DNA of 64,000 nucleotides from Sporolactobacillus sp. (GCA_048976585.1 JBHGUY010000009.1:148-64147); one strand, 5' to 3'. Positions 24,850 through 44,638 are shown, counted from the stretch's first letter. The notes: generated by a model not told the origin, from the letters alone. Translations and numbers: made by a program.

Positions 24850-25167
24850 TCAGTGAAATAAACCCATCTTGTTCGTTTCACGCGTCACATTCACTTTGTC
24901 TCTTTTACCCGGTGTCAGAAAAAGCGTCTTTCTGAATTTTTCATCCGTGTGCGGTTCCTTGAATGTCAAGCGCTGGACCTGAACCGGAATCTTATGATAA
25001 GTGCTGACATTCGTATTGATTTCATTCGGATCAATCGTCGTTTTCTGTTTTTGAAAATGATTGGGCTGGACCTTCGTCGCACTATCTCCATCGAATCCGG
25101 CGACTACCGTGTATGAAAACAGCATGACCCCAGTCAGGATGCAGGACTTAAAGATTTTCCGTCTCAT
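24850..25167 (-). CDS. essA: T7SSb component EssA/YueC, short form lacking the C-terminal TM helix
   Basis: Position after esaA; signal-like N-terminus; KVQPN and LTF..P...FRKTLF...KMGLF resemble YueC; only 105 aa. Confidence 0.65.
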   Translation of the reverse strand: MRRKIFKSCILTGVMLFSYTVVAGFDGDSATKVQPNHFQKQKTTIDPNEINTNVSTYHKIPVQVQRLTFKEPHTDEKFRKTLFLTPGKRDKVNVTRETNKMGLFH

Positions 25168-28102: not shown

Positions 28103-28144
28103 GAAAGACTCCCTTTCTATTGTTCAAAGCTCATATGATTAAGA

Positions 28145-31100
28145 TTAGCCGGTTTTGATTAATACTCGTTTTGCACGCGGGATCATCAGTCGGCGGTCTT
28201 GGCCTTGATGCAGCAAATAGCCAAACCCAATCGCCAGTTCACGCTCTTTGCTGACAAAAGGAAGGGTAAAGACCGATTGATCCGTTTTCTTAATCAGCAG
28301 CAAGCCATCCTTCACGGTTTTCAATTCTGTGATTAACGGATCGTAGCCTTTCCATTCCAGCGCATTGCCCGCCGCAATCACATGGAAACCGATCGATGAA
28401 TAGCGCTTCATCAGCTGAATAATCCGGTTTTGCATCGTGCCTGCCTTGCGGATAAAAGCATCCAGACTGTCAATTAAAAGATAGTAGGCAGGATAGGCGG
28501 CGGCAAGCTCCGCGCGCGGCAGATCGTCATCGAGCATTTTCTCCTTAATCTCACGTTCGCGGGCCGAGAAGACGGCCTCGATCTGATCGGCATAGAGCTC
28601 AATGGCCGTTCCGTCATCCAGATAGGTCCAATTGTTCTTTTCTGCATCTTTGGCAAAGACCAGTTCCTCGGAATCGCTGATAGCGAGTGACGCATGATTA
28701 AATCGCTGAAGCTGATCAATGATAAAACGAACCGCATTGGTTTTCCCTTTTTTCGGATCACCGATGATAATGAATGAACCAAGCTGACGGCATTCGATCC
28801 CAATCGGTTCGACCGATTCCTCATCAAGGCCAAGATAGAGCGTATCCGCGAGCAGTGCCTCATTTTCAAGGAATTCAGCCGCATCGAGCTGCTCAGGCAG
28901 CATCGGAATATGATAAAGAGTTGACGAGACCGGATGGTCCGCATTGCAGGCATCCACCGCCTCGAGCCACTTGGTCAATTGCTCGCCGGCTGTTTTCGCC
29001 TCAAATGGCAGGTAGATCTGAATGCTCTCCAGATCTTCCGTTTTGATTAATGCCCGCCCAGGGATTGCCTCGACCGTTTTCTTCACCGAACCGCTGAAAA
29101 TCGAATAGAATTCGGTTTGATCGACCATATAGTGGGACAACCGGATTGGCAGACTGGTCAGCAGATTCGGTCGAATCCCGTTGGCCCGGGACACGGTAAG
29201 AATAAATTGCAGACCGAGGCTTCCGCCTTCACGTGCCCAGCGCACGAAGGCTTCTTCCAGGGCATCAGCCTGTTCCTCGCGCAAAGCCTCAAAATTGTCG
29301 ACGGCGATTTTTAGATAGGGCAGCTTTTCACTTTCCTGCTCATTATAGAGCTCGATATTTGGTACACCGCTGCGACGGAATAGGTCCTTGCGTCGCTGAA
29401 TTTCCAGATTCAACCATTTGGAAAATTTGCTAATCTTCTCCTTTTCATCAATTCGAAAATAGTCACCCGTGTGATGCAGACGGCGCAGGGATAATAAACC
29501 TCCGCTACCGAAATCAAAGAGATAGAACTGAACCTCATCCGCCGAATAGCTTGCGGCAGCTTCCAGCAAATAAGACGAGAGAGTTGTTGTTTTTCCAAAA
29601 CCGGAAGCACCGAAAATAGCGATATTTTTTGATTTTTTCAATGAGAGATACACCGGCGTCTGCATCTGCTTTTCCGGATGATCGGCGAGGCCAAGCAGGA
29701 AGGCATCCTTTTCCCTCTCTTTTGCCACCGGCCGAACCTGATGAATCGGCAGCGGTGCCACCCATGGACTCGGCAGGCGTTCCACTCCGTTTCGCTGGCA
29801 AATGTCGGCGATGGTCTGAACAATTTGCTCCAATTCGCTGATCTTTTTCGCCTGCACCTTTTTTTTCGCGTGAGCCTCGGAAATCGGATAAAGGCCGGTA
29901 TCTTCAACAGCGTAGACATCGTCCTCGGACGTATAAATCGTTTTTTCGTATGGGGCACCGCTCCAGGCGGATTGAAAGAGTTCATAAATTTCGTTATTAC
30001 CGACCTGCAGATAGCCGCGGCCGACCTGCTTCAGGCTGGCTGCATCGCCATTGCCGAGAATATCATTACTGTCGGCACTGTCCTGAACCCGCAGCGCAAT
30101 TTTAAAACGCGAATTACTACGGATCTGATCGTCGACTACCCCCGCCGGCTTCTGTGTCGCCAGAATCAGATGAATGCCGAGGCTGCGTCCAATCCGTGCG
30201 GTTGTGACCAGCTCGCGGATAAAGTCCGGTTCCTCTTTCTTCAGTTCCGCAAATTCGTCCGAAATGATAAATAAATGCGGCATCGGTTCACTGACTTTGC
30301 CCTGACGATGGAGCAGCTGATAGTCATCAATATGGTTAATACCGTATTTTGAAAAAAGCAGCTGGCGTCTGCGCGACTCACTCTTAACAGCAGCCAATGC
30401 CCGATCGCTGAAATTTTTCTCATCATTAATATTAGTCATCGTGCCGAGCAGGTGCGGCAGCTTCTCAAAGAGCTGAGCCATGCCGCCGCCTTTAAAATCA
30501 ATCAACAAAAAGGCTACATCATGCGGATGAAAATTAACGGCGAGTGACAGGATGTAGGATTGGAGCAGCTCGCTTTTCCCGGAACCAGTTGTCCCGGCAA
30601 GCAGCCCATGCGGACCATGCGCTTTTTCATGCAGGTTAAGCTCGAGTACATCATTGCGGCTGCGCAGACCAATCGGCACAGCCAGTGACTGAATCGGATC
30701 ATGCTCACTCCAGCGCCGTTCGATATCCAGTTCATCCGCATCTTCGGCATGCATCATTTCCATAAAAGTGACATTTTCCGGAATCGAATTACTGAAGCTG
30801 CTCCGATGCTTCAGCGAAGCCAGCCGCCGGGCAAACCACTCATTCCCGGCATTCACGAAGGGATCGATCTGAAAACGCTGGCCATTTGCGACCTGCTTCA
30901 GAATCAGAACATCACCCGCATTCGCGTTCACATAACGGACGACTGTCTGTACATTTTCATTCAAATTATCTTTTGTATTCGCCAGAAAAATCGAACTGAC
31001 ACCGATTTCGGTATAATCTTTATTCAGAAATTCAGCAATTTCATGTTCATGGATCAATTGGTCGGAAGCGACAATAAATAACAAATGGGGAAGAAAGAGC

Positions 31101-32620
31101 TTCTTCTCTTTATGTTCCGTATGCTCGCGAATCTTGAGTTGTTCATAGAGACTAGGCAACAGCTGATCACGGGTCTGTTCGTTATAAACCATATTCCGGC
31201 CTTGCGTACTGAGACTATTCAGATGCGGCAGCCATTTGAGCCAGGCCCACTGGTCATACTCTTCCTGATCAAACAGCAGCACAATCCGCAAATCGTGATA
31301 GCTGTGGAAGAAGGCCAGTTGCAAAATAATCTGCTGCACCGCCGTGCGGATGATTGAGTGTTTGCCTGTCAAACCCAGCGGGCCATCGGTTAAGGCGATC
31401 GTCAGCGGCACGTCGCGAACCTGCCGGTAATGATCAACAATCGCTTTTGCTTCTACATAAAGCGCATCGAACGAACGATTGGACACTTCCTCTTCACTAG
31501 CCTCAATCTCATAATCCGCCGGCAGAGTCGTCGTTCCCAACCGGATATCCAGAAAGTCTTCCTCCTCGCGGCTTCTTTCCCAAATTCGCGGACTCAGCCC
31601 TTCTGCAAGCTCCTTCAGCGCGCTGCTGTCCGGAAATTGATAGCGCAGGACGAAGCGTTGCCGCTCGTATAGCGTGTTCAATTCTTCCCGTTTCTCGGCC
31701 AGATAATGGGTATAGTTCGTCTGCCGTTCCTTCAGGCGTTCCTTCAATTGACGCGACTCATGAAAATACTGAAAGGTCGAGGTCACAATCGTCGTCAGAA
31801 ACATGACAATCGACAGCAGCATGTAAATGCCGCTTGGCTGGACAATCAGCACAATGCCCATTACGATCAGCATCAAAAGGGGTGGCAACAGCGTCACCCA
31901 GAGATTGCGATTACCGCCCTTGTCCGGATTGGTTGGCCAGGAAAATTTGACTTTTTCTCTTGGCCGCTCATAGATCAGGCGGGGCATCCGCTGATAATCC
32001 GGATAACGATCAGCTAAGATGGTTCGTGGATTTTTCGCCGGGAAAAGAGCCGTGTGAAAGGCACTCGTTGTTCGAACAATCAACAAATCCTCAGATTGCA
32101 GCGTCCATTCACTGAGCGCCCAGCTCAGAACATCGCCGAGCGCAACCTGCGTTCGACTGCGAATGCGTCCCCCATTTAGATAAACCTGATTTCCCTCCTC
32201 GGCAAGCAGATACCAGTTCCCGCCCTCGCGCGTTAAAAGAAAACCAGGCGGCGTATTCGCTTCAGAAAATGAAAAGTCGGCTGTTTCCCCGCCAATGGTG
32301 ATTTGTTTCTTCTGACCAATATAAAAGCCCTGCGGCCGATCAGGGATAGAAAGGCCTTCGAGGATCAAAGTCAGTCGCGGCTTGTCTGAGCTCGGAAAAG
32401 TCACTGCCTTTCTTTCGGGCAAATCAAACCTTTGATCACCATTTTGACCCACCCATTTTTTCTGAGCCGTTTCCCACTTCAGATGAATTTTCTCTTCCAT
32501 TTGCACAGGTACCGTGAGCGTATCGCTTAAAGTCTGACCAATCTGAAGATCTCTTTTATGAAAAGTTGCAAGATCAATGACTTGCACAAAGTCTTCTGTA
32601 TATAGCCACAGCTTTTCCAT
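28145..32620 (-). CDS. essC: T7SSb FtsK/SpoIIIE ATPase EssC/YukB
   Basis: N-terminal FHA-like region, 2 TM, Walker A motifs GTTGSGKS, GASGFGKT and GDPKKGKT; 1491 aa. Confidence 0.95.
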   Translation of the reverse strand: MEKLWLYTEDFVQVIDLATFHKRDLQIGQTLSDTLTVPVQMEEKIHLKWETAQKKWVGQNGDQRFDLPERKAVTFPSSDKPRLTLILEGLSIPDRPQGFYIGQKKQITIGGETADFSFSEANTPPGFLLTREGGNWYLLAEEGNQVYLNGGRIRSRTQVALGDVLSWALSEWTLQSEDLLIVRTTSAFHTALFPAKNPRTILADRYPDYQRMPRLIYERPREKVKFSWPTNPDKGGNRNLWVTLLPPLLMLIVMGIVLIVQPSGIYMLLSIVMFLTTIVTSTFQYFHESRQLKERLKERQTNYTHYLAEKREELNTLYERQRFVLRYQFPDSSALKELAEGLSPRIWERSREEEDFLDIRLGTTTLPADYEIEASEEEVSNRSFDALYVEAKAIVDHYRQVRDVPLTIALTDGPLGLTGKHSIIRTAVQQIILQLAFFHSYHDLRIVLLFDQEEYDQWAWLKWLPHLNSLSTQGRNMVYNEQTRDQLLPSLYEQLKIREHTEHKEKKLFLPHLLFIVASDQLIHEHEIAEFLNKDYTEIGVSSIFLANTKDNLNENVQTVVRYVNANAGDVLILKQVANGQRFQIDPFVNAGNEWFARRLASLKHRSSFSNSIPENVTFMEMMHAEDADELDIERRWSEHDPIQSLAVPIGLRSRNDVLELNLHEKAHGPHGLLAGTTGSGKSELLQSYILSLAVNFHPHDVAFLLIDFKGGGMAQLFEKLPHLLGTMTNINDEKNFSDRALAAVKSESRRRQLLFSKYGINHIDDYQLLHRQGKVSEPMPHLFIISDEFAELKKEEPDFIRELVTTARIGRSLGIHLILATQKPAGVVDDQIRSNSRFKIALRVQDSADSNDILGNGDAASLKQVGRGYLQVGNNEIYELFQSAWSGAPYEKTIYTSEDDVYAVEDTGLYPISEAHAKKKVQAKKISELEQIVQTIADICQRNGVERLPSPWVAPLPIHQVRPVAKEREKDAFLLGLADHPEKQMQTPVYLSLKKSKNIAIFGASGFGKTTTLSSYLLEAAASYSADEVQFYLFDFGSGGLLSLRRLHHTGDYFRIDEKEKISKFSKWLNLEIQRRKDLFRRSGVPNIELYNEQESEKLPYLKIAVDNFEALREEQADALEEAFVRWAREGGSLGLQFILTVSRANGIRPNLLTSLPIRLSHYMVDQTEFYSIFSGSVKKTVEAIPGRALIKTEDLESIQIYLPFEAKTAGEQLTKWLEAVDACNADHPVSSTLYHIPMLPEQLDAAEFLENEALLADTLYLGLDEESVEPIGIECRQLGSFIIIGDPKKGKTNAVRFIIDQLQRFNHASLAISDSEELVFAKDAEKNNWTYLDDGTAIELYADQIEAVFSAREREIKEKMLDDDLPRAELAAAYPAYYLLIDSLDAFIRKAGTMQNRIIQLMKRYSSIGFHVIAAGNALEWKGYDPLITELKTVKDGLLLIKKTDQSVFTLPFVSKERELAIGFGYLLHQGQDRRLMIPRAKRVLIKTG

Positions 32621-32680
32621 TTTTTTCTCCTCCTGTAGAGGCTGCTATTGAGGCACGAATTCTTCCGTACGTCTTTGAGA

Positions 32681-34024
32681 CTACTTCCCGGAAGACTGAT
32701 CCGACCCGCCCTTTTTCTGAGATTTATCGCTCTTTTTTGGCGAAGTTCCGCCGGATTGTCCATTAGGCGTGGAACTTGAAGAAGCGTCACTCGACTCTAC
32801 AGACTGCCCACTTGTGCCGGTATCCGTTGTCGTACTCTCACCGCTTGTCCCGCTGGCAGGTGCCGTTTTTTGCTGCTTCAGTAAATCTCTATATTGCTTC
32901 AGCTGTCCATCAATGCGCTGCAGCCGTGCTTGTTTCTGAGCACCATTCATTTTGAGATTATTCTGGATCGCCGACTGCTCATTCAGCAGCGCATAAGCGA
33001 TCAGCATCCGATCATTGAGCGAGCGGGCTGTATTCAGTGCCCCCGCCGCATCGCCTCTCCCAGTCTGAATCCAGTATTGATAGTAGAGCGGGTTGCTTTG
33101 CAGCGTCACATCTTTTAAAATATTGGCTTTCTGCGTCTCATTGAGGTTCTGATTTTCAACGAAGGAAACAGCTAGTTCATATTGCACAACTCGGGGCATC
33201 CGATTAAATGAAATTGGACTCAGCGTGGTCACAACATTACTGTATTGATTCCCCAGAAAGTTTTCATGAGCACTCTCAAATAGATCTTCCCGCGGCAGCT
33301 GAATCACATAGGCATAAATGGTCACCGCGATCAGCGGCACCAGCAAAACAAGGCTGCAGATAAAGAGCACTTTACGGATAAAATTCTTTTTCCTAGGTAC
33401 CCGAATGCTTTGTTTCTCAGCAGTCACTTCATTTTGCCGTCTTTTGGCGATCAGCCTGGCAAGGGTCTGAAAATCTTTACAATTGAAGATCTTTTTTATA
33501 AAAGGTGTCGTTTTTGCCACGAAATCAAATTTGGCATATGTATCAAATGTTTCAGAAGGATCAAGCAGCGAAGCAATGACCGCCTTCACATGCTTCAACG
33601 GCTCTCCCTCCGCAGATTCAAGCGGCGGGAGGCTGCCCTTGACCCCATAATGTAGGAATACCGGTGCAAATCCTGGTGAAACAAAAAGATTTTCAGGGAA
33701 ACAAACCGGAACCAGTCGTGATTGCGGATAGTGTTCAAAGAAATGAACCAAGTTACTGGCAAAAATCAATTTTTCTATTTCTGTCTCCGCTTTCAAATCC
33801 TCAAAGGGTTTGAGATCCGGGGCAGGCACGATCTGGATCGTCACCTCATCCTCTGTTGTTTGAATCGTACGTGTCATCCCATCTGCCATGCTGCTCAACG
33901 CACCGAGCTCTGCATCTGCTCGTAAAGGAATCTTTACCCGCTGAAAGGTTAATAGATACTGTCCTTCGTTTTCTTCAACCTCAGCGTCGAAAGCTGTCTG
34001 AAAAAAGCTCTGCGTTAATGCCAT
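32681..34024 (-). CDS. essB: T7SSb component EssB/YukC
   Basis: PENL..HYGVKGSLPP pseudokinase-like region, single TM, YELAVS.V..QNL. Start 34024 (SD GAGGTG). Confidence 0.9.
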   Translation of the reverse strand: MALTQSFFQTAFDAEVEENEGQYLLTFQRVKIPLRADAELGALSSMADGMTRTIQTTEDEVTIQIVPAPDLKPFEDLKAETEIEKLIFASNLVHFFEHYPQSRLVPVCFPENLFVSPGFAPVFLHYGVKGSLPPLESAEGEPLKHVKAVIASLLDPSETFDTYAKFDFVAKTTPFIKKIFNCKDFQTLARLIAKRRQNEVTAEKQSIRVPRKKNFIRKVLFICSLVLLVPLIAVTIYAYVIQLPREDLFESAHENFLGNQYSNVVTTLSPISFNRMPRVVQYELAVSFVENQNLNETQKANILKDVTLQSNPLYYQYWIQTGRGDAAGALNTARSLNDRMLIAYALLNEQSAIQNNLKMNGAQKQARLQRIDGQLKQYRDLLKQQKTAPASGTSGESTTTDTGTSGQSVESSDASSSSTPNGQSGGTSPKKSDKSQKKGGSDQSSGK

Positions 34025-34034
34025 CTTCTTCACC

Positions 34035-34274
34035 TCATAAGACAATCAGCTTGTCTCCGTCTGTAATCTTTTTTTCACTCAGCACGTCAAAGCCGCGGAT
34101 CATTTCCCGCTTATTCGCCACGCGTACCCAATAACCGATACGCGGCTGCCGATCGATTCCGGCAATCGTCCAGACGGTTTGTATTAACTGCTTGACCGGC
34201 TGCCGATCCGAAACGCGCAAATCGAGAGTCTCTCGATTGTAGCGGGATAAATCCAGCGACAAATTAATATACAT
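34035..34274 (-). CDS. esaB: T7SSb ubiquitin-like EsaB/YukD
   Basis: MYINLSLDL, ITDGDKLIVL; position before essB; SD GGAGGAG. Confidence 0.88.
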   Translation of the reverse strand: MYINLSLDLSRYNRETLDLRVSDRQPVKQLIQTVWTIAGIDRQPRIGYWVRVANKREMIRGFDVLSEKKITDGDKLIVL

Positions 34275-34425
34275 TAATGACTCCTCCCCCACTGCCTGAA
34301 TAGTCCCTTATTCAACGAAAAGCTCCGTCCAAATCCATCAATTATTGTGCCGATTAAGGGCACGATATAAAATTATGTCCAAAAATTATCCAATCGCTGG
34401 CAACTGGATAAACATTCCTTTTTTG

Positions 34426-34777: not shown

Positions 34778-35257
34778 TCATCTCTGAACGGGCTCAGTTA
34801 AGATAGGCAGATGAATTTCGGCAATCCAATCGCCGTAAACAGGAACCATCACATGATAGAAGGTATTTCCCGGACGGAGTTTCAACTTATCCGCAGAAGC
34901 CTTCAACTCGCGATAGGTCGCTGAGAACGGCTTGTTCATTTGATAATGACGCATAGCCAGAGTTTGATCGATCATAAACGATTTCTGATAGTTGCATTGG
35001 GCTTTTTCTGCGTTTTCAAAATCCGCATTCAGGGAATAATAGAAAGTGAAAAGTCGGTCATCCTTCGAGCCCTGAGCCTCGTCGATGGTCATAATCAGCG
35101 GACTGACTGGGCAAAGGCCGTGTTTAAGTGCTGTGTATTTTAATTCAAGCGCTCTCTCCAGCCACAATTCCTTAGGAAGCGTTTCTGCGCGGCTGAGTAC
35201 ATGGAAACAGATTAATGAACTTTCCCGGATCACATCATCATTCTTCGCCATTTGCAT
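34778..35257 (-). CDS. DUF5085-like (GyrI-like) protein, paralog 3
   Basis: Shares G..P..P, RHY and FYHV...YGD...EIH pattern with its two neighbours. Confidence 0.6.
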   Translation of the reverse strand: MQMAKNDDVIRESSLICFHVLSRAETLPKELWLERALELKYTALKHGLCPVSPLIMTIDEAQGSKDDRLFTFYYSLNADFENAEKAQCNYQKSFMIDQTLAMRHYQMNKPFSATYRELKASADKLKLRPGNTFYHVMVPVYGDWIAEIHLPILTEPVQR

Positions 35258-35693
35258 CCTGAACCCCTACCTTCAGCTCCACATATTGGAAATCACGTGT
35301 TCCTTTAAAGAAATGAAATATCGGCGAAGCCATCTCCAAGCGGTTGACGCGCATAAAAAGCAATAATTCGGCATAGGATTTTTCAGTCAGCTGAGCGAAT
35401 TGGCCAGTGAGAAAGGTCATAAGCATATTGCTTACTGTGAAATAGCTGCGGAAAATCAACCCCTCATGCTTCGGAATGTCCATTTCTTCTATTGCCATAA
35501 AATATTCAAGAGCCATATCCCCGTTGATCGGAACATTGTTCAACGAGTAAAAAAAGGTCCCAGTAGGCGTCAGCTTCATCAGACTAATCTCCTGGAAAAA
35601 ATCCTCCATGGCTTCCGCAAATTTGGAGTAATGGATGAAATAGCGTCGTGAAACAACATTCCGCAATTCTATCGAATCATTTTCGATAATCAT
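35238..35693 (-). CDS. DUF5085-like protein, paralog 2
   Basis: MIIENDSIELRNVVSRRY...GTFFYSLNNVP resembles the DUF5085 family as recalled. Confidence 0.65.
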   Translation of the reverse strand: MIIENDSIELRNVVSRRYFIHYSKFAEAMEDFFQEISLMKLTPTGTFFYSLNNVPINGDMALEYFMAIEEMDIPKHEGLIFRSYFTVSNMLMTFLTGQFAQLTEKSYAELLLFMRVNRLEMASPIFHFFKGTRDFQYVELKVGVQDANGEE

Positions 35694-36151
35694 TGTTCAG
35701 CGCCTCCGGTGATCAGGGCATGAATATCAAAATAGATATCTCCATTGATCTCAAGACAGACATGATAAAAGGGTTCAGCAATGGTTAATCGTTGCTGTTC
35801 GGCAAAATCATTGATTTCTTGATACGATTGTTCAAGCGGTATCGATTCCTCATAATGACGTTTCCATAAAGTATGAGGCAGATGCAGCGATTCTTGAAAT
35901 TGGAGCGAATCCTCGCTTATTTCCACTGGCGAACTGAGCGGAAGCAGCAAGGTATATTTTTTGAAAGCCGGTTCATTTTTCACATCCTGAATCATCAAAA
36001 CGAGTGGACCATTCGGATAAACGCCGCCCTCCAGAGCCACCTGTCTCAGCGCTTCGCCTTCTTCATACCACTTGTCACCGGAACAAATCACCGACCGGCT
36101 CAATAAATTTAATAAGACCAGCGAACCCTGCTGTACTTCCACTTTAAGCAC
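35690..36151 (-). CDS. DUF5085-like protein, paralog 1
   Basis: NLLSR, GGVYPNGPLV, KRHY, PFYHV...NGD..FDIH; GTG start; own TATAAT at 36174-36179. Confidence 0.6.
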   Translation of the reverse strand: MLKVEVQQGSLVLLNLLSRSVICSGDKWYEEGEALRQVALEGGVYPNGPLVLMIQDVKNEPAFKKYTLLLPLSSPVEISEDSLQFQESLHLPHTLWKRHYEESIPLEQSYQEINDFAEQQRLTIAEPFYHVCLEINGDIYFDIHALITGGAEQ

Positions 36152-36458: not shown

Positions 36459-37200
36459 CTATTCTAATGGATTAAAAGATTCAAACCGGCATTTACAATA
36501 AAAAGTGATCAGACCTATGGGTAAAATCAAGCCATAAAAAACGCATAAAAAAAATAGTGCAATGACAAACATAATAAGAGCTTGCATCTTGAGACCGACA
36601 GATTGCGCCAGAAACTTGCCTCCAATGGCTCCTATCAGTGCAAAAAAACCTATCCCAATAGCTACTTTGTTATTGCCTCCACTATCTCCTGATTTTCCAA
36701 AGAGCCTTCTCATCTTTTCTAAAAGCTCCCCTATTCAGTCTGTAATTTATGAAAAGAAGTCCCAGGAGCAGAATAAACAGACTCATCACGGTTATAAACA
36801 GCAATATCGCTCCCAGTGACAATGAGGGAAAGGCGAATTTGCTGATCAACATCCCCAAAAATGAAAAATCATATCCGGTGATATAGACAGTTATGAGATA
36901 TATCACAAATAATACCCTTTGCAATTGAATCCTTAATCGTTTAAATAAAAATAGAAGGGCTGAAAACAAAAGGATAATCGAACTCGCCCACTGGCAGTAA
37001 AAAAACCATCCCCATTGATGCATTAATGCTGCGGAAAAACCCAACCAAGCCATGGCATAGCTTATGGCTGCAGAGACCAAAGAACAGATGAAAAAACCAA
37101 AGAACAATGAATAGATTCGATAAGGGCTCAATCCCCCTGTTTGAATCCCTTTCCGCAATCATTCAAAATCTGCTTCGTTTAACCTTCGTAGATTTAACAT
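36459..37200 (-). pseudogene. Decayed multi-pass membrane immunity-like paralog (array member 6)
   Basis: GGAGG-ATG at 37200, TGA at codon 14, frameshift at ~36705; retains DF..L..G...G.L.P, FRK and YCKCRFESF family motifs. Confidence 0.8.
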
Positions 37201-37323
37201 TTTTTCCTCCACAGACCAGTTCCTTCGTTTCAAATTCGACATTACCCTTTCTACGCCACTTGAAATTCATCTTAAATGTCCTAAACCTAAAAAGGCATTT
37301 TCGCTTAAATCTTTTCAGCCCAT

Positions 37324-38088
37324 TCACAAATCGGAAAGATCGAATGATTCTTCTTCTCTTACTGCATTAAACGATTTAAAACGAAATTTGCAGTAAATGA
37401 TATACAAATATTCAATGATTCCGACTCCAAATAAAAAAAGAGAAACAACAAAACCGACAATGACGATTAAAACTGTTGAGGCATCTTGTCCCCAATATTT
37501 TGAAGCAATAATAGAGAGTAGTACTCCTGCAGCTGAGAATGGTAGAATTGCTGAGAAACGACTCATGCCCTCACTGTATTGCTTATGAAAGAACCCTCTT
37601 CCTTCTTTCCTAAATTCTCCTTTTTTCAGCAGAAAATAACTTCTGATTAAGGAAAGAACGAAAATCAACAAGTTGATTATCATATACAAGAGGATTACAA
37701 GATTAAACGGAAGATTCGCGTACGAATATTTCCACGCAAACAAAGTCGCACACGACAAATCGATTGCTAATTCGATAAAAGAAAGAATCAGTAAAACAAG
37801 ACCGCTTTTCTGGAAAGTAACACTGACCTTTTTTAATAGAAAGGGCAGTGAGACAATGGCCAGAGCAAGCAGACTATACCATTGCCCATAAATTAGTGAG
37901 ATCCAGCTCTTGTAAAAGGAACCATGAGCTACGATTGCAGCTTGCTGACCACAATAGATAAATAGAGCACTAATTAAATCCACTACCAGAAGAAATTTGC
38001 CCACTCGACTCGGATTTAACCTGCCAGATATTAATCCTTTTTTGAACATTGCGAAATCAGATTCTTGAAATTTATCAAGTAAAGTCAT
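37324..38088 (-). CDS. Multi-pass membrane putative LXG-toxin immunity protein (member 5, subfamily B)
   Basis: 254 aa; close paralog of 38149..38913. Confidence 0.75.
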   Translation of the reverse strand: MTLLDKFQESDFAMFKKGLISGRLNPSRVGKFLLVVDLISALFIYCGQQAAIVAHGSFYKSWISLIYGQWYSLLALAIVSLPFLLKKVSVTFQKSGLVLLILSFIELAIDLSCATLFAWKYSYANLPFNLVILLYMIINLLIFVLSLIRSYFLLKKGEFRKEGRGFFHKQYSEGMSRFSAILPFSAAGVLLSIIASKYWGQDASTVLIVIVGFVVSLFLFGVGIIEYLYIIYCKFRFKSFNAVREEESFDLSDL

Positions 38089-38148
38089 GAAGATTCCTCG
38101 ATTTTAATTATGTTTTAACAAAACACCGCTTAAATTTTTTCAGCCCAT

Positions 38149-38913
38149 TCACAAATCGGACAGATCGAATGATTGCTCTTCTTTTACCGCATTAAACGAT
38201 TTAAAACGAAATTTGCAGTAAATGACAAACAAAAATTCTATGATCCCGACCCCGAATACAACAAGAGAACCAATAAAGCCAGCAATGACAACTAGAATTG
38301 TTAAGGCATCCTGTCCCCAATATTTTGAAGCAATAATAGAGAGTAGCACACCTCCTGCTGAAAATGGAAGGATCGCCGAAAACCTACTTATTCCCTCACT
38401 GTATTGCTTATGAAAGAACCCTCTTCCCTCTTTCCTAAATTCTCCCTTTTTAAGCAAAAAATAACTTCTAATTAACGAAAGTACAAAAGTCAGTACGATG
38501 ATTAGCATATACAAAAAGAATAAGAAATTAAACGGGAGAGCAGCATTCTCATCTCTCCAGACAAACAAAGTCGCATAGGATAAACTAACCATCAATTCAC
38601 TATAAGACAGGATAAGTAAAACAAGACTGCTTTTCTGGAAAGTAACACTGACCTTTTTTAATAGAAAGAGCAGTGAGACGATGGCCAGGGCGAGCAAACT
38701 ATACCATTGCCCATTAATTAGTGAAATCCAGCTCTGATAAAATGAACCGTGAATCGAAGTTAAAGCCAGTTGCTCACCAAAAATGAACAGAGCACTGCCC
38801 AAATCCACTCCCAGAAGAAATTTTCCCAAACGAACCGGATTTAACCTGCCCGATACTAATCCATTTTTGAACATTGCGAAATCAGATTCTTGAAATTTAT
38901 CAAATAAAGTCAT
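38149..38913 (-). CDS. Multi-pass membrane putative LXG-toxin immunity protein (member 4, subfamily B)
   Basis: MTLFDKFQESDFAMFK..GRLNP, KKGEFRKEGRGFF, YCKFRFKSF. Confidence 0.75.
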   Translation of the reverse strand: MTLFDKFQESDFAMFKNGLVSGRLNPVRLGKFLLGVDLGSALFIFGEQLALTSIHGSFYQSWISLINGQWYSLLALAIVSLLFLLKKVSVTFQKSSLVLLILSYSELMVSLSYATLFVWRDENAALPFNFLFFLYMLIIVLTFVLSLIRSYFLLKKGEFRKEGRGFFHKQYSEGISRFSAILPFSAGGVLLSIIASKYWGQDALTILVVIAGFIGSLVVFGVGIIEFLFVIYCKFRFKSFNAVKEEQSFDLSDL

Positions 38914-39080
38914 GCAGCCACCCCGTAGCGATTAACCCTGGTTTGTGCTTCCATTTTTAACATCTAGAGTCACATTTTTACTTATTTTACTGAATCATGC
39001 AAGATTGACAGATAGCTATATTAATTATAGATGCGAAATTCTTTTGCAAAGTGTGTCTCTCATTTTCTCATTTATCATAC

Positions 39081-39914
39081 TTAACTTTTTTTCTTCTTCG
39101 CTTCTCTCTTCATTTTATCCCGCTCTTTTTCCCAATTAAGATGAGCTTGCTCTGCTTTTTTATCCTTAGCGTCAATAATTATCTGTTGCTCAGGAGTTAG
39201 TCTGAACTCGGGAAAGCGCAACTGACAATAGAGAAAGCTAAAAGAAGAAGGTGCGACAAGGTAATCTAAAAGAAGTGTCATAATTAATAAGGCGACCCAA
39301 ATCGTAATTAAAGTTACCGTATTATTGGCAAATCTCGGAATAATGAAGCCCAGAGCCACAGCTGCACCAATAATACTTGAGCCAAAAAGAGGAATTGCTG
39401 TTCCTTTGCCCTGACCTAAATGATTTGAATCTCGGTAGATCCCTTTTTTTGCACGAACGAGAAAACGAACAATGGCAGAAAGAAGAATAGACAGCGCAAA
39501 TAAAAAATAGATCAGCAGAAATAAATAATAATTCAGTGTCGAAATACAAATTTTTGTATAAATCAGGAAAACTACCGCGAAATCAAAACACATTTTTGGC
39601 AAGCAAATAAAGGCAGTGAGCAGGACTGTCCTCTGCAGATGAAAACTAACTTTTCTTATAAAAAATAAAAAGGCTAATACAAAAAAAATAGTTGAAACGC
39701 TCCCGTCAGGAATAAGTAAGGGTAAAAGCCAGTCATGAAATGATTGTCCAATCGAAAATGAGCCAAAGAATGACGCTATGAGTAAACCCATCGATATTAC
39801 AGGACAAATGTAAATTAACCTGCTCAAATTTATTAGATTAAAGTCACCATGACGAATACTTTCCAGAAAAAAAGCAAAATCTCTATAATTCAGTTCATTC
39901 AATTTTTTCATCAT
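39081..39914 (-). CDS. Multi-pass membrane putative LXG-toxin immunity protein (member 3, subfamily A)
   Basis: 277 aa; long identical blocks shared with 41059..41895. Confidence 0.75.
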   Translation of the reverse strand: MMKKLNELNYRDFAFFLESIRHGDFNLINLSRLIYICPVISMGLLIASFFGSFSIGQSFHDWLLPLLIPDGSVSTIFFVLAFLFFIRKVSFHLQRTVLLTAFICLPKMCFDFAVVFLIYTKICISTLNYYLFLLIYFLFALSILLSAIVRFLVRAKKGIYRDSNHLGQGKGTAIPLFGSSIIGAAVALGFIIPRFANNTVTLITIWVALLIMTLLLDYLVAPSSFSFLYCQLRFPEFRLTPEQQIIIDAKDKKAEQAHLNWEKERDKMKREAKKKKS

Positions 39915-40025
39915 TCATTCTTATGACCTTGTTTTTCCTTCCACTGACGAGCTTTTTTATTTTACAATCATCCTTTTACAGAATGTACCTCACATTTTAC
40001 TGAACCTTCTTCAGTTCTACAATGC

Positions 40026-40840
40026 TTATCTTTTCTTCTTTTTTCTCTCCCTCTCTCTTTCCCAGTTAAGGTGAGCTTGCTCATTTCTTTTATCTTCAGC
40101 ATCAAGAGCTGCCTGCTGATCAGCGGTTAACCTGAACTCAGGAAAGCGCAACTGACAGTACATAAAAATAAAAGGATTTGGAGCAAGAAGCAAATTTGAA
40201 ATATAAGAAAGAAATAATGTCCCACTCCACGCAACAATTAAGATAATTGTACTCCCAGAATGCCTGTCGATTATAAAACCTAAAGCTACTCCCAAAACAA
40301 TCAATCCAGAGCCCAATAAGGAGATATTACTTGTTTTTGCAACATTCCTTTGTTTTCCGTGTAACCGATATAATCCTTAGCGTACATTATGGAAGGTCCG
40401 GCTGAGGGAATATATCAGCACAGCCAAGGATAGTGCACAATAAACTATCAATAATAAATAGTAGGGAACAGATGGAAAATTGATTTTTGTATAAATCAAA
40501 AAAAGACCGCTAAATCGAAACTCATTTTCAACGGTGCTATAGATGCCACCGTAAGTTCTGTTTTTTGGAATCGAAAGCTCATAGAGTTTATGGAAAACAA
40601 AATTGACATAATCAGAAAAATGATTGAAATCGATCCGTCCGCGTAAAGAAAAGGAACAAAAGTCTGATGAAAAGATTGCCCTACAGTAAGAGATCCCAAA
40701 TAAGCCATTCCAAGAGCAAGCAAGGAAATAACAGAATAAATATAAAGGCCCTTCCCCATTCTTGTGGGATTTAAATCACCCATCCGATATCTCTTAAGGT
40801 AATAAGAAAAATCTTCCTGAGAAATATGACTCCTAATCAA
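40026..40840 (-). pseudogene. Decayed multi-pass membrane immunity-like paralog (member 2, subfamily A)
   Basis: Frameshift in a T7 run (40498-40504) and in-frame TAA at 40377-40379; both halves align with members 1 and 3. Confidence 0.85.
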
Positions 40841-41058
40841 TAGGGATCAATCCTTTTTTGAATTTTTCAAAAATGTTTTCTTCTACATGAATACTTTTTC
40901 TGTAGACGGTTATCACCAGTTTGATTTTTTTATTATTGTCTGAAACTTGCAAGATTGGCAGGTAGCCCTCTTATAGTTTTTATATTATTTACAGATGCGG
41001 CAATACTTCTCCAGAATGTGCCTCACATTTCACTGCACCTTTTTCAGCTTTAAAATAC

Positions 41059-41895
41059 TTAACTTTTTTTCTTCTTCGCTTCTCTCTTCATTTTATCCCG
41101 TTTTTTTTCCAAATTAAGATAGGCTTGCTCTGCCTTTTTACCCTTAGCGTCAATAACTGCCTGTTGCTCAGGGGTTAATCGGAACTTGCGAAAGCGCATC
41201 TGACAATACAGGAAGCTGAAAGAAGAAGGCGCGACAAGGTAATCTAAAAGAAGCGTCAAAATCAAAGTGGTAATCCAGATCATTATCAAGGTCACCGTAT
41301 TACTGGAATATCTCGGAATAATGAAGCCCAGAGCCACGGCTGCGCCGATAATACTCGAACCAAAAAGAGGAATTGCTGTTCCTTTGCCCTGACCTAAATG
41401 ATTTGAATCTCGATAGAACCCCTTTTTGGCATGAATAAAAAATCGGACAATGGCAGAAAGAAGAATGGAAAGTGCAAATAAAGAATAGATTACCAAGAAC
41501 AAATAATAATTCAGTGCTGGAATACTTATTTTTGTGCAAATTAAGAAAAATACTGCAAAATCAAAACACATTTTTGGCGGCCAAATAAAGGCAGTTAAAA
41601 GAACTGTTTTCTGCAAACAAAAACTAACTTTTCTCATAAGAAATAAAAGAGCAAACATAAGAAATATAATTGAGATGATCCCGTCAACAGCTAGAAACGG
41701 AAGATACTCTTTATGAAAAGATTGTCCAATCGTTATAGACCCAAAGAATGAAGCTATAAGTGTTCCTAGAGATAGAGCAGGATAAATATAGATCAGTCTG
41801 CCCAATGTGATTGGGTTGGAATTGCCTTGACGAGTACTCTTAAGAAAAAAAGCAAAATCTGTCTGATTCAGTTCATTCAATTTTTTCATAATCAA
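41059..41895 (-). CDS. Multi-pass membrane protein, likely cognate immunity for the LXG toxin (member 1)
   Basis: Starts ~20 nt after the toxin stop; 5-6 TM; charged C-terminal tail. Confidence 0.75.
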   Translation of the reverse strand: MIMKKLNELNQTDFAFFLKSTRQGNSNPITLGRLIYIYPALSLGTLIASFFGSITIGQSFHKEYLPFLAVDGIISIIFLMFALLFLMRKVSFCLQKTVLLTAFIWPPKMCFDFAVFFLICTKISIPALNYYLFLVIYSLFALSILLSAIVRFFIHAKKGFYRDSNHLGQGKGTAIPLFGSSIIGAAVALGFIIPRYSSNTVTLIMIWITTLILTLLLDYLVAPSSFSFLYCQMRFRKFRLTPEQQAVIDAKGKKAEQAYLNLEKKRDKMKREAKKKKS

Positions 41896-41913
41896 TCCCT
41901 ATTACCTCTCCAA

Positions 41914-43410
41914 TTAATGGAACCAAGAAATGATTTTATCGCTAATATGATGCAATCCATCTTTCGCCCAATCAATAGCACTTTTCTTTTTATAAATTGG
42001 ATAATTTAAAATAAATCCCAATGTCAATCCCGCAACAACACCAACAGCCATTCCAGCCGGTCCAAGTGCTACTCCCATTTCACCTCCCGCCAGTGCGGAA
42101 GCAGAAGCAGCCCCTACAGCTTCGCCAACTCCTGATGTTACTGCACCAGTCACGGTGTCTGTAGCAATATCATCCGTAACACGAGCGATATTTTTTGCGC
42201 CCATTTTTTTATTTCTATACTGATTGATATCTGAGGCGTATTCGGCAGCCGTTCCGACACCTGTCAATACTTTTCCAGATTTTGCAATATAACCGACATC
42301 ATTCCAGTTGTCAAATGTTTTAAAGGGTTTCATTAAATCAGTTAAATTTTTTTTGAACCCATTTGTAAAAGCTTGTTTCCGCGCTGTAGCATTCAAAGCA
42401 TAGTTAACTTCATCAGATTCATTCATTAAGGCACTGACGCGTTTTGTATAATTTCCCGAATTTTTCTTTTGGATCCGTATATATTGCCCGTTTGAGAAAT
42501 TGACATTAAATCTGCCTTTCACTTTTGAATGACCGTATCTATCCAAAAAGATTTTCATTGCTTTTTTATTACCTGTAACGCGTATATAATCGCCCTTCTT
42601 CACAATTCGCAGGCCTTTGATGCTGGCAACGATCTCCGGTAACGCCTTTAGGACTTCTTTCGTTTTATCAATTCCAAGACTTATACGCTCCGAACGATCA
42701 CTGTCGCCTTCCTTTTTCGCTTTTTCGATTTGTCTCGTTTTTTCTAATTGCGCCGTCTTTACTTTTAGTCTTTTCCCCAGTTCTGTTTTTGCGAAGCTGC
42801 CGGCCTGATAAAAATTGGTTTGGCCAAAATGAGGACTGTAACTCGTCTTGATCTTGGTCATCGCCTGTTCCAGCGTATTCAGCAGCGGCATGAGCTCGCC
42901 GGCATAATTCACTGAAGCAAAGCTTTCAAAATGCGTCTTCAGCTGAGTGATATCCTTTTCCTGCTGCGTCACATCATGAGTCAATCCGTCGGCGGACGGC
43001 ACGCGAAAAAAAGCAACATCGCTGACGGAACGGACGTCCGCCGCCAGCTGACGGTGAATGGTGTCAAAGTGATCCTTGAGCCGGTCGATGTCCTTGTGCA
43101 GTTCGCCGAGATGTTCGGAACGAATGACCGTATCCGGAGAGGCATCAACGTGGCTCTTAAATTGACTGAGCATTTTTTTGTAGGTCTGGGGCAGACTTTC
43201 ACTAATTTCACTCAAAGCCTTCAGAATGGGCAGGTGAACCTCTGAAAAATAGTTTTTGATACTGACGGCTGTAGCTCCCTGGATGGCGCTCAGAGAGCAA
43301 AGATCCTCGATCTCTCCCTGCACGGTCTGCAGTGCGCTGCGCGAGGAACTAGCCTCTGCGGCGAGTTCCGTCCCAATCTTATTCACTTCAGCTAAACGAA
43401 TTTTTGGCAT
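41914..43410 (-). CDS. LXG-domain polymorphic toxin with C-terminal glycine-zipper hydrophobic region
   Basis: N-terminal AIQGATAVSIKNYFSEVHLPIL LXG pattern; C-terminal GEAVG..GVALGPAGMAVGVVAGLTLG. Confidence 0.85.
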   Translation of the reverse strand: MPKIRLAEVNKIGTELAAEASSSRSALQTVQGEIEDLCSLSAIQGATAVSIKNYFSEVHLPILKALSEISESLPQTYKKMLSQFKSHVDASPDTVIRSEHLGELHKDIDRLKDHFDTIHRQLAADVRSVSDVAFFRVPSADGLTHDVTQQEKDITQLKTHFESFASVNYAGELMPLLNTLEQAMTKIKTSYSPHFGQTNFYQAGSFAKTELGKRLKVKTAQLEKTRQIEKAKKEGDSDRSERISLGIDKTKEVLKALPEIVASIKGLRIVKKGDYIRVTGNKKAMKIFLDRYGHSKVKGRFNVNFSNGQYIRIQKKNSGNYTKRVSALMNESDEVNYALNATARKQAFTNGFKKNLTDLMKPFKTFDNWNDVGYIAKSGKVLTGVGTAAEYASDINQYRNKKMGAKNIARVTDDIATDTVTGAVTSGVGEAVGAASASALAGGEMGVALGPAGMAVGVVAGLTLGFILNYPIYKKKSAIDWAKDGLHHISDKIISWFH

Positions 43411-43423
43411 CGCGTCCTACACC

Positions 43424-43714: not shown

Positions 43715-43725
43715 CTGTACACCTC

Positions 43726-44124
43726 CTATTTATTCTTTAGTGCGTTAAGTGAGGCATGCAGAGAGTGGATATCCGTCTGACATAAATCAAGACTCGCATT
43801 CAACGTGCGGATCTCATCCTGTACATCATCCTTCAGCCCACGGACGGCGTTCAGAAAAAGATGATAATCCGGCAAAGTGTCCGAATCCATTTGACCACTG
43901 AACTTTTTTCGTTTCGTGCCGGCCCATTCCGAAACCGGATTGTAGAGTGATTGAAATTTAGACTGATTGGCCTCAAAAGCGGATAAATGTTCGGTGATTT
44001 GGGCGATTAAATGCTTGAGCTGGCTGATCTTATCATTCAGCACCCGCTCTTGCCTCTGAAAAGTATCAATATCACGACGTAAATTCCCTCGCACCACATT
44101 CTCGGACTCTATCTGCATCTGCAT
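43726..44124 (-). CDS. LXG-associated helical partner (YwqH/DUF5082-like)
   Basis: 132 aa coiled-coil with central WAG (SEWAGTKRKKF). Confidence 0.7.
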   Translation of the reverse strand: MQMQIESENVVRGNLRRDIDTFQRQERVLNDKISQLKHLIAQITEHLSAFEANQSKFQSLYNPVSEWAGTKRKKFSGQMDSDTLPDYHLFLNAVRGLKDDVQDEIRTLNASLDLCQTDIHSLHASLNALKNK

Positions 44125-44211: not shown

Positions 44212-44505
44212 TTAATTGTTGATCTGGCTGGCAATCTGCCGGTCAGTATCTTCCAGAATCGTTGCCGTTTTCGCCAATTGATGATTGATGTCTTCTAGAA
44301 GCTGCTGCATCTGATTGAATGACGGGCGTAATCTCTCATATTGAGATTTGAAGGCCTGGCTGGATGCACCTTCCCAGACCTGAGCAAGCTGGTTAATCAT
44401 ACCGTCAAGCCGTCCGATTAATTCACCGGTATTCGATGATTCCTGTCCATATTTTGCTGCATAGCTCCTCAATTCTTCCGGTGTCAGCCGAATTTGTCCT
44501 GCCAT
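44212..44505 (-). CDS. esxA: WXG100 protein EsxA/YukE
   Basis: MAGQIRLTPEEL, central WEG, 97 aa; strong SD GGAGG. Confidence 0.95.
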   Translation of the reverse strand: MAGQIRLTPEELRSYAAKYGQESSNTGELIGRLDGMINQLAQVWEGASSQAFKSQYERLRPSFNQMQQLLEDINHQLAKTATILEDTDRQIASQINN

Positions 44506-44638
44506 TTGAAAAAACCTCCTCGTTTTTTCCATGCGCAGCACTGCCCACGCATTTCATAAGTATTTGGACCACAGCCTTGTTTCCGAACCGTAGTCTCAAT
44601 TCTCGTCACAAAATAGACTTATTTGTCAACTTGTTCAT

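What the first reader, a model, noticed from the sequence alone, without database searches (positions are those of the whole stretch)
36459..41895. Six-member tandem array of polymorphic multi-pass membrane proteins
Seen: all members share DF..F...G..NP, K.S...QK, KG.(F/Y)R and YC..RF..F. Subfamily A (members 1-3, ~277 aa, charged tail) and subfamily B (4-5, 254 aa) are followed by a more divergent member 6. Near-identical blocks alternate with variable TM segments, and no orphan toxin tips are visible between them. Established: TspA/TsaI and similar loci carry arrays of membrane immunity genes. Inference: a library protecting against allelic variants of a membrane-depolarising toxin. I cannot assign the family to a named domain.
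Basis: partly seen in the sequence, partly recalled or inferred. Interest (0 to 1): 0.75.

Follow-up and report, generated by a model that had tools for sequence, protein, structure and literature searches.

The report
Membrane immunity gene array beside toxin
A Sporolactobacillus type VII secretion locus carries six tandem copies (four intact, two broken) of an unnamed six-helix membrane protein next to a pore-type toxin; they are most likely a strain-variable set of immunity proteins, a new sequence family filling a role described in 2023-2026 in Staphylococcus and Streptococcus.

Summary
The six paralogues exist on the minus strand at 36459-41895, but members 2 and 6 are pseudogenes, each with one frameshift and one stop codon. 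The motifs are real but only YC..RF..F is strictly invariant. The proteins have six transmembrane helices, both ends cytoplasmic. They match no Pfam or NCBIfam model and no solved fold.

They belong to a rare unnamed family (137 cluster representatives) in Bacillaceae, Sporolactobacillus, Cohnella and Clostridium. Elsewhere the family sits in a conserved module: LXG toxin with a C-terminal glycine zipper, then the membrane protein, then two DUF5085 genes. One species fuses the membrane protein to a DUF5085 domain. This is the gene order of S. aureus esxX-exiC-exiA-exiB(-exiD) and S. gallolyticus telE-gallo_0563-0564-tipE.

Related strains differ in array content. A 96%-identical strain carries a toxin with the same N-terminus and a swapped, still glycine-zipper, C-terminus.

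Best reading: membrane-side immunity proteins against secreted glycine-zipper toxins, expanded into a library, while the DUF5085 proteins neutralise the cell's own toxin in the cytoplasm. It is not DUF443, DUF5079 or DUF5080 by HMM. Novelty is moderate.

The parts
44212..44541 (-). WXG100 protein (EsxA/YukE type). The probable ATG start is at 44505. A terminator-like hairpin follows at 44157-44198.
   Evidence: Pfam WXG100 E 6.7e-22; hairpin
43726..44124 (-). YwqH-like small helical protein, a likely LXG-associated (Lap) targeting partner
   Evidence: Pfam YwqH-like E 2.9e-11; role inferred from PMC12744356 and PMC10801868
43424..43714 (-). DUF5344-like small helical protein, the second likely Lap partner
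   Evidence: Pfam DUF5344 E 1e-3, below the curated cut-off. Same position as LapX3 in S. aureus.
41914..43410 (-). LXG toxin, 498 aa. LXG domain at residues 14-189. C-terminal glycine-zipper hairpin at about residues 423-465. Ends ...SWFH.
   Evidence: Pfam LXG E 7.1e-22; PDB 8gmh_B LXG E 8.7e-12; zipper motifs; toxin C-terminus profile E 5.6e-29
41059..41895 (-). Member 1, subfamily A, intact. 278 aa from the TTG start, or 276 aa from the ATG at 41889. Six TM helices and a charged C-terminal tail. Starts 18 nt after the toxin stop.
   Evidence: AF2 model pLDDT 87.6
40026..40840 (-). Member 2, a divergent subfamily A pseudogene. One base is lost in a T-run (40498-40504) and there is a TAA at 40377-40379.
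   Evidence: reproduced in a 1680-nt Logan contig
39081..39914 (-). Member 3, subfamily A, intact, 277 aa, 77% identical to member 1
38149..38913 (-). Member 4, subfamily B, intact, 254 aa
37324..38088 (-). Member 5, subfamily B, intact, 254 aa, 79% identical to member 4. One of the two B copies (this one or member 4) is missing in a related strain.
   Evidence: contig joining 37330 to 38153 in run X2
36459..37200 (-). Member 6, a third lineage and a pseudogene. TGA at codon 14 (37159-37161) and a frameshift near 36700-36720. The stop codon reads GGA in a related strain. The gene is absent from another related strain.
35690..36151 (-). DUF5085 protein a, in the ExiA/Gallo_0564 position
   Evidence: Pfam DUF5085 E 3.9e-7; synteny
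35238..35693 (-). DUF5085 protein b, in the ExiB/TipE position. Likely the cytoplasmic binder of the zipper.
   Evidence: Pfam DUF5085 E 3.5e-33; synteny; role by analogy
34778..35257 (-). DUF5085 protein c, an extra paralogue of protein a
   Evidence: Pfam E 4.1e-5, below cut-off; phmmer against protein a E 2.5e-18
34386..34411 (-). Terminator-like hairpin that closes the toxin-immunity module before yukD
   Evidence: consensus match only
24850..34292 (-). T7SSb core genes: YukD 34035-34292, YukC/EssB 32681-34045, EssC 28145-32620, EsaA-like 25148-28102, EssA 24850-25212
   Evidence: Pfam YukD, YukC and EssA; FtsK_SpoIIIE domains on the orthologue

Best explanation
The array encodes members of an unnamed family of six-helix inner-membrane proteins (N and C termini in the cytoplasm). 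[quoted passage not shown]

Proposed mechanism, inferred by analogy with S. aureus EsxX:
1. The DUF5085 proteins encoded just downstream hold the zipper of the cell's own toxin in the cytoplasm until export.
2. The membrane proteins sit in the membrane and block toxin that arrives from outside, whether from sisters or from competitors.
3. The toxin C-terminus is swapped between closely related strains, so one membrane protein is not enough. The gene has been duplicated and diversified into a library of three lineages (A, B and member 6).
4. Member 1, translationally close to the toxin, is the likely cognate. The others are probably kept against foreign alleles. Two copies (2 and 6) are now decaying.

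Shown here: the anatomy, the topology, the family, the conserved linkage to toxin and DUF5085 genes, the strain variation and the purifying selection.
Inferred: the protective function, its extracellular direction, and allele specificity.
For: - Context. This is a complete T7SSb locus in which the module esxA - two Lap-like genes - LXG toxin - array - three DUF5085 genes sits before yukD, yukC, essC, esaA and essA.
- Toxin. It has glycine-zipper motifs at residues 423-465. It aligns with the C-termini of toxins next to family members in 12 other loci.
- Family. A profile search found 137 representatives, matched over their full length.
- Conserved module. In 15 of 22 genome loci from Cytobacillus, Neobacillus, Heyndrickxia, Fictibacillus, Cohnella, Clostridium and others the order is toxin, membrane protein, DUF5085 (two DUF5085 genes in 13 loci), sometimes followed by a second membrane protein. 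Pfam LXG E about 1e-46 on four of the upstream proteins.
- Fusion. Bacillus aquiflavi fuses the membrane protein to a DUF5085-like domain, in two assemblies.
- Orphans. Copies without a toxin or DUF5085 genes occur in Neobacillus and others, as reported for exiCD (PMC12744356).
- Published analogues have the same gene order and six TM helices. ExiC and ExiD protect only against extracellular EsxX. ExiAB and TipE act in the cytoplasm.
- Polymorphism. A 96%-identical strain has a toxin that is 94-100% identical over residues 1-200, with near-identity running to about residue 235, and 18-35% identical beyond. One strain lacks member 6. Another has one B copy fewer and an intact codon 14 in member 6. 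Sporolactobacillus sp. CQH2019 has three tandem copies.
- Selection. dN/dS is 0.22 (m1/m3) and 0.21 (m4/m5) at dS about 0.6, so the intact copies are maintained. dN peaks around TM1-loop-TM2 and the TM3-TM4 loop.
- Topology. AF2 gives pLDDT 87.6 and pTM 0.80 with six long helices. There are 28 K+R on the predicted inner segments against 3 on the outer loops.
Against: - No functional test exists for this family.
- The most conserved residues (E.DF, R..P, FQK.Q, G.FRK.G, PE....YCKFRF.SF) all lie on the predicted cytoplasmic face, and the outer loops are the least conserved. This fits a conserved cytoplasmic partner at least as well as a purely extracellular shield.
- In S. gallolyticus, the six-TM protein in the same position did not protect E. 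coli against cytoplasmically expressed TelE, and it co-purifies with the soluble pre-secretion complex.
- No sequence similarity to ExiC, ExiD or TsaI families was detectable.
- Two of the six copies are broken, so the library is partly decaying.
- Allele specificity of individual paralogues is pure inference.
Confidence: 0.6

Rival explanations
1. Pre-secretion chaperone or holdase. The membrane protein, through its conserved cytoplasmic face, joins the DUF5085 pair in binding the hydrophobic toxin C-terminus before export, as reported for Gallo_0563 in the seven-protein TelE complex. Its main job would be toxin stability and hand-over to the T7SS rather than protection from incoming toxin. 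This is not exclusive of the best explanation.
For: - Family-wide conservation is concentrated on cytoplasmic segments.
- A natural fusion to a DUF5085 domain places the two together on the cytoplasmic side.
- Gallo_0563 co-purifies with TelE, Gallo_0564 and TipE, and TelE stability depends on the co-expressed proteins.
Against: - A chaperone for a single toxin gene does not need four to six diverged copies.
- Orphan copies exist in loci with no full-length toxin gene and no DUF5085 genes.
- Copy number varies between near-identical strains.
Confidence: 0.2
2. Obligate heteromer. Subfamilies A and B would be the two halves of one immunity complex, like ExiC plus ExiD. The array would then be two or three A/B pairs rather than a library of independent units.
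For: - ExiC and ExiD protect only together.
- Some related loci have a membrane gene on each side of the DUF5085 pair (L001, L011, L019).
- A and B are only 21-25% identical.
Against: - Several related toxin loci carry a single family member (L002, L003, L005, L006, L015).
- Sporolactobacillus sp. CQH2019 has three copies of one type only.
- A and B are homologous and share one fold family, unlike two separate Pfam families.
Confidence: 0.12
3. No immunity role. The proteins would be a toxin receptor or a T7SS accessory factor, or simply neutral decaying duplicates.
For: Two copies are pseudogenes. No function is known for any member. All database names are 'hypothetical protein'.
Against: - dN/dS of about 0.2 between old duplicates (dS about 0.6) shows selection on the intact copies.
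- Linkage to the toxin and DUF5085 genes is conserved across families of Bacillota.
- Many T7SSb loci lack the family, so it is not a core component.
Confidence: 0.06

Closest known systems
S. aureus ST398 EsxX with ExiC/ExiD (DUF5079/DUF5080) and ExiA/ExiB (DUF5085); Alcock et al. 2025, PMC12744356
   Same: - An LXG toxin with a C-terminal glycine zipper, preceded by two Lap-type helical proteins.
- A six-TM membrane protein encoded directly after the toxin, then two DUF5085 genes, sometimes then a second membrane protein.
- Orphan membrane genes occur away from toxin genes.

   Different: - No HMM match to DUF5079 or DUF5080, even at E<=10, in 102 family members.
- The paper reports that ExiCD homologues are confined to Staphylococcaceae.
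- Here one family is expanded to six tandem copies, rather than two different families in single copy.
- There are three DUF5085 genes rather than two.
- The module lies between esxA and yukD rather than downstream of essC.
S. gallolyticus TelE with Gallo_0563, Gallo_0564 and TipE; Teh et al. 2023 (PMC10434224) and Agrawal et al. 2026 (bioRxiv 10.64898/2026.03.12.711312)
   Same: - Gene order: toxin, then a six-TM protein 'without a predicted DUF domain', then a DUF5085 gene, then a second DUF5085 gene (TipE).
- The toxin is a polymorphic LXG protein with a glycine-zipper C-terminus (seven TelE variants among isolates).

   Different: - Gallo_0563 is a single gene, not an array.
- Sequence homology between it and this family could not be tested, because no sequence was obtainable with these tools.
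- There is a DUF4176 chaperone gene in the TelE operon. No gene sits in that position here, but DUF4176 was not specifically searched for.
S. aureus TspA with TsaI (DUF443) arrays; Ulhuq et al. 2020 (author's knowledge; mentioned)
   Same: A membrane-depolarising T7SS toxin followed by repeated genes for polytopic membrane immunity proteins whose number varies between strains.
   Different: - No DUF443 match.
- TspA is toxic only from outside and has no DUF5085 partner, whereas this locus has the dual-layer layout.

Membership tests
DUF443 (TsaI) | Match to the Pfam DUF443 model | tested here: not met
   No hit at E<=1 for any window member. The family is not among the 25 most frequently hit families listed when 102 members were scanned at E<=10.
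DUF5079/DUF5080 (ExiC/ExiD) | Match to the Pfam DUF5079 or DUF5080 model | tested here: not met
   No hit. NCBIfam also has none.
DUF5079/DUF5080 (ExiC/ExiD) | Six transmembrane helices | tested here: met
   Hydropathy. AF2 helices 28-56, 58-84, 95-122, 130-157, 177-195 and 199-234.
DUF5079/DUF5080 (ExiC/ExiD) | Encoded next to a glycine-zipper LXG toxin and a DUF5085 pair, and also found as orphans | tested here: met
   Window layout. 15 of 22 related loci. Orphans in L009, L010, L018 and L020.
DUF5079/DUF5080 (ExiC/ExiD) | Two different membrane proteins are required together, and they protect only against extracellular toxin | not testable with these tools
   This needs expression assays. 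The existence of single-copy loci argues against an obligate pair.
Gallo_0563-type partner of TelE | A six-TM protein with no Pfam domain, encoded immediately after a glycine-zipper LXG toxin and before two DUF5085 genes | tested here: met
   description of Gallo_0563
Gallo_0563-type partner of TelE | Sequence or fold homology to Gallo_0563 | not tested
   No Gallo_0563 sequence or model was obtainable. Neither the PDB sequence search nor the PDB fold search gave a relative.
TelE/EsxX-class toxin (for the upstream gene) | N-terminal LXG domain | tested here: met
   Pfam LXG E 7.1e-22; 8gmh_B E 8.7e-12
TelE/EsxX-class toxin (for the upstream gene) | Extended glycine zipper near the C-terminus | tested here: met
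   Six overlapping (G/A/S)xxxGxxx(G/A/S/T) motifs at residues 423-465. Aligns to the zipper of 12 related toxins.
TelE/EsxX-class toxin (for the upstream gene) | Membrane depolarisation or permeabilisation | not testable with these tools
   Requires an assay.
Polymorphic toxin system | Conserved N-terminal delivery domain with a variable C-terminal toxin domain between strains | tested here: met
   Window toxin versus L035 toxin: 94-100% identity over residues 1-200, near-identity to about residue 235, then 18-35%.
T7SSb locus | Core genes esxA, yukD/esaB, yukC/essB, essC, esaA and essA | tested here: met
   Pfam hits. EssC by size and by FtsK_SpoIIIE domains on the orthologue. The EsaA-like gene was assigned only by position, size and C-terminal TM helices. 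It has no specific Pfam match.

The most novel reading that the evidence does not exclude
The family may be a two-faced adaptor. Its invariant cytoplasmic surface (N-terminal E.DF helix, the G.FRK.G loop and the juxtamembrane YCKFRF.SF motif) would dock the DUF5085-toxin pre-secretion complex. Its variable outer half would neutralise incoming toxin alleles.

One protein family would then couple self-protection, toxin hand-over to the T7SS and allele-specific immunity. The tandem array would be a record of the toxin alleles a lineage has met.

This would also settle the open question raised for Gallo_0563, namely how a six-TM protein can be part of a soluble toxin complex.
Probability: 0.15. 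Interest if true: 0.75.

Novelty: new variant of a known kind. Interest (0 to 1): 0.5.

Why it matters
Glycine-zipper LXG toxins with two immunity layers were described only in 2023-2026, and only in Staphylococcus and Streptococcus. This locus shows the same module in spore-forming Bacillota, built with a membrane protein family that no database names, and it shows that family expanding into strain-variable arrays.

Three practical gains follow.
- About 140 sequence clusters and a confident structural model are now available for defining a new family.
- There is a natural fusion to DUF5085 that points to direct contact between the two immunity layers.
- The species offers toxin alleles and immunity paralogues that can be matched pair by pair.

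It does not reveal a new kind of system.

Tried and rejected
- Pfam and NCBIfam scans of all members found nothing. A Pfam scan of 102 family members at E<=0.01 and at E<=10 gave only scattered chance hits and no DUF443, DUF5079 or DUF5080.
- Word-indexed protein searches with member 1 and with the family alignment returned almost only the window's own genes. The exhaustive profile search was needed.
A narrower alignment worked.
- The PDB sequence search had xanthorhodopsin as its best hit (E 0.0014), judged a chance match between helical membrane proteins.
- The Foldseek PDB search had a best E of 0.29 and TM-scores of 0.26-0.30, so there is no relative.
- The viral contig scan found no relatives.
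- The search with DUF5085 proteins was meant to reach Staphylococcus or Streptococcus loci, so as to obtain ExiC/ExiD or Gallo_0563 sequences. None was among the 120 hits listed, so homology to those proteins stays untested.
- The B. subtilis YFJ system was considered and set aside. Its antitoxin YfjD has a single TM helix and the operon has no DUF5085 genes.
- Promoter and terminator scans were at background level and are not used as evidence, apart from two hairpins.


Full report
OBSERVATION. The minus strand between 36459 and 41895 carries six homologous units.
- Four are intact genes: member 1 at 41059-41895, member 3 at 39081-39914, member 4 at 38149-38913 and member 5 at 37324-38088.
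- Member 2 (40026-40840) is split by the loss of one base in a T-run (40498-40504). It also carries a TAA at 40377-40379, in place of the lysine of the KG.YR motif.
- Member 6 (36459-37200) has a TGA at codon 14 (37159-37161) and a frameshift near 36700-36720.
- An independent assembly of the same run reproduces both regions without a difference.
- In a related strain from a food metagenome, codon 14 of member 6 reads GGA. The stop codon is therefore a recent, strain-specific lesion.

Pairwise identities are m1/m3 77%, m1/m2 47%, m4/m5 79%, A versus B 21-25%, and member 6 versus all others 22-29%.

The mosaic pattern is statistically real. Differences are clustered (P<0.0005), and m1/m3 share a 53-nt identical tract (P=0.002). 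No fragment of the toxin C-terminus lies between the genes or anywhere else in the window.

THE PROTEINS. Hydropathy and an AlphaFold2 model (pLDDT 87.6, pTM 0.80) give six long transmembrane helices.
- Predicted inner segments carry 28 Lys+Arg and the three outer loops carry 3. Both termini are therefore cytoplasmic.
- There is no Pfam or NCBIfam match, no relative among PDB sequences and no similar solved fold (best Foldseek E 0.29).
- An exhaustive profile search of 1.84 billion cluster representatives found 137 proteins at E<=0.001, most matched end to end.
- Every member that carries a name is called 'hypothetical protein' (or 'Membrane protein' in UniRef), and clusters hold one to three sequences.
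- Across 102 members the conserved positions are E.DF, R..P, FQK.Q, G.FRK.G and PE....YCKFRF.SF. All lie on the predicted cytoplasmic face.
- The outer loops are the least conserved parts, at 0.5-0.9 bits against 1.8-2.3 bits.
- Subfamily A departs from several near-invariant residues, for example YCQ instead of YCK.

CONTEXT IN THE WINDOW. The array lies inside a complete type VIIb secretion locus, read here along the minus strand:
- WXG100 gene (44212-44541), followed by a hairpin;
- a YwqH-like and a DUF5344-like small helical gene;
- an LXG toxin (41914-43410);
- the array of six members;
- three DUF5085 genes (34778-36151), followed by a hairpin;
- YukD, YukC, EssC, an EsaA-like gene and EssA.

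The toxin has an LXG domain (Pfam E 7e-22; PDB 8gmh_B E 9e-12). It has six overlapping glycine-zipper motifs at residues 423-465.

CONTEXT ELSEWHERE. A genome scan returned 22 loci in Cytobacillus, Neobacillus, Heyndrickxia, Fredinandcohnia, Fictibacillus, Evansella, Cohnella and Clostridium.
- In 15 of them the family member is directly followed by a DUF5085 gene (two DUF5085 genes in 13).
- In 14 the ORF just upstream ends in a conserved zipper hairpin (...GAGAAAMG.GAAAGS.FLPPAGTVVGA...KIFW). Twelve of these were aligned, and the window toxin aligns with them.
- Pfam confirms LXG on four of the upstream proteins at E about 1e-46. Other evidence adds L015, L028 and L031/L032.
- Eleven loci have two to four family copies.
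- Seven loci have no adjacent DUF5085 gene (one of these is a 2.4-kb contig). Their family copies sit beside toxin remnants (L007), just upstream of essC (L008), or among unrelated genes.
- Bacillus aquiflavi encodes, in two assemblies, a 412-aa fusion of the membrane protein to a DUF5085-like domain, downstream of an LXG toxin and a DUF5085 pair.
- The family was not found in viral contigs.

COMPARISON WITH PUBLISHED SYSTEMS. The S. aureus order is esxX-exiC-exiA-exiB-exiD.
- ExiC and ExiD are six-TM proteins (DUF5079 and DUF5080). Together they protect only against toxin presented from outside.
- The DUF5085 pair ExiAB binds the zipper in the cytoplasm.
- exiCD also occur as orphans in strains that lack esxX (PMC12744356).

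In S. gallolyticus the order is telE-gallo_0563-gallo_0564-tipE.
- Gallo_0563 is a six-TM protein 'without a predicted DUF domain'. It did not rescue E. coli from cytoplasmic TelE.
- It co-purifies with the soluble seven-protein TelE complex (PMC10434224 and bioRxiv 10.64898/2026.03.12.711312).

The window's module has the same layout. By HMM its membrane proteins are not DUF5079, DUF5080 or DUF443. Homology to Gallo_0563 could not be tested.

STRAIN VARIATION. The window comes from a sugarcane-bagasse metagenome. Its DUF5085 protein b is 97% identical to one from a Sporolactobacillus MAG.
- In that lineage (96% DNA identity over the T7SS genes) member 6 is absent. The last array gene is a divergent B-type copy. 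Every contig breaks at the array.
- Its toxin is 94-100% identical to the window's over residues 1-200, with near-identity running to about residue 235. Beyond that it is 18-35% identical, yet it still carries a glycine zipper of the 'standard' form.
- The food-metagenome strain has a contig that joins 37330 to 38153, which means one subfamily B copy fewer.
- Sporolactobacillus sp. CQH2019 has the same locus plan with three tandem copies. These are 55-60% identical to one another, and their core is closest to subfamily B.

SELECTION. dN/dS is 0.22 for m1/m3 and 0.21 for m4/m5, at dS of about 0.6. These are old duplicates held under purifying selection. dN is highest around TM1-loop-TM2 in subfamily A and around the TM3-TM4 loop in subfamily B.

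INTERPRETATION. The best-supported reading is that these are membrane-side immunity proteins for a polymorphic glycine-zipper LXG toxin.
- The DUF5085 proteins would provide cytoplasmic self-protection.
- The array would be a library against the different toxin alleles that circulate in the species.
- Member 1 is the likely cognate of the resident, unusually divergent toxin, which has a 12-residue insertion in its first zipper helix.

The main reservation is that the family's conserved surface is cytoplasmic, together with the DUF5085 fusion and the Gallo_0563 data. These point to an additional or alternative role in the pre-secretion complex. An obligate A/B heteromer is less likely, because many loci carry a single copy. 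None of the functions has been assayed.

NOVELTY. The kind of system is known. The new elements are the membrane protein family, its spread through spore-forming Bacillota, its fusion to DUF5085 and its expansion into strain-variable arrays.

Noticed in passing
window 41914-43410 versus L035:11020-12498: In a 96%-identical strain the LXG toxin keeps its N-terminal ~235 residues (94-100% identity in 50-residue windows over residues 1-200). Its C-terminal half is replaced by a version only 18-35% identical, still with a glycine zipper. This is a clean allele swap with a sharp breakpoint.
   Followed up: yes
L031/L032:8547-9785 (Bacillus aquiflavi): A 412-aa natural fusion of the membrane family to a C-terminal DUF5085-like domain (Pfam E 2.6e-6). 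It lies after an LXG toxin and a DUF5085 pair and is present in two assemblies.
   Followed up: partly
L007, L009, L010 (Neobacillus), around 8500-10800: Orphan family members with no adjacent DUF5085 genes. They are preceded by short helical ORFs and, in L007, by a 173-aa remnant of a toxin C-terminus. They look like decayed modules that kept only the membrane gene.
   Followed up: partly
window 40932-41013 and 38984-39011 (minus strand): The spacers before members 2 and 4 share conserved blocks (...GCATCTGTAAATAATATA...CTGCCAATCTTGCA...) containing promoter-like hexamers. The spacers after members 4 and 5 both begin ATGGGCTGAAAA.ATTTAAGCG. Possible internal promoters carried along with the duplication unit.
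   Followed up: partly
window 34778-35257: A third DUF5085 gene, a paralogue of the first (phmmer E 2.5e-18). Most related loci have only two. Other Sporolactobacillus strains have a 155-168 aa gene in the same place with no Pfam hit.
   Followed up: no
window 34292-44541: The whole toxin-immunity module lies between esxA and yukD, with hairpins at 44157-44198 and 34386-34411. In Sporolactobacillus sp. CQH2019 a second WXG100 gene follows the module (L028:11277-11570). The module may therefore have been inserted together with, or next to, a duplicated esxA.
   Followed up: partly
window 44820-45482: A Crp/Fnr-type regulator gene (cNMP-binding domain plus HTH_Crp_2) lies directly upstream of esxA on the same strand. 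It is conserved in that position in the related strain (L035). It is a candidate regulator of the T7SS locus.
   Followed up: no
window, toxin residues about 435-446 (roughly 42075-42110): Relative to 12 related toxins, the window toxin has a 12-residue insertion (ASALAGGEMGVA) in the first zipper helix and ends SWFH instead of KIFW.
   Followed up: partly
window around 26700-26730 (EsaA-like gene, 25148-28102): The EsaA-like protein contains a (Gly-Thr)5 run (SGTGTGTGTGTGES). It is encoded by a short tandem repeat that could change length by slippage.
   Followed up: no
L023-L027, L033-L035: All short-read contigs of related strains end at the edges of the array. Public assemblies will therefore systematically under-report the copy number of this family.
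   Followed up: yes
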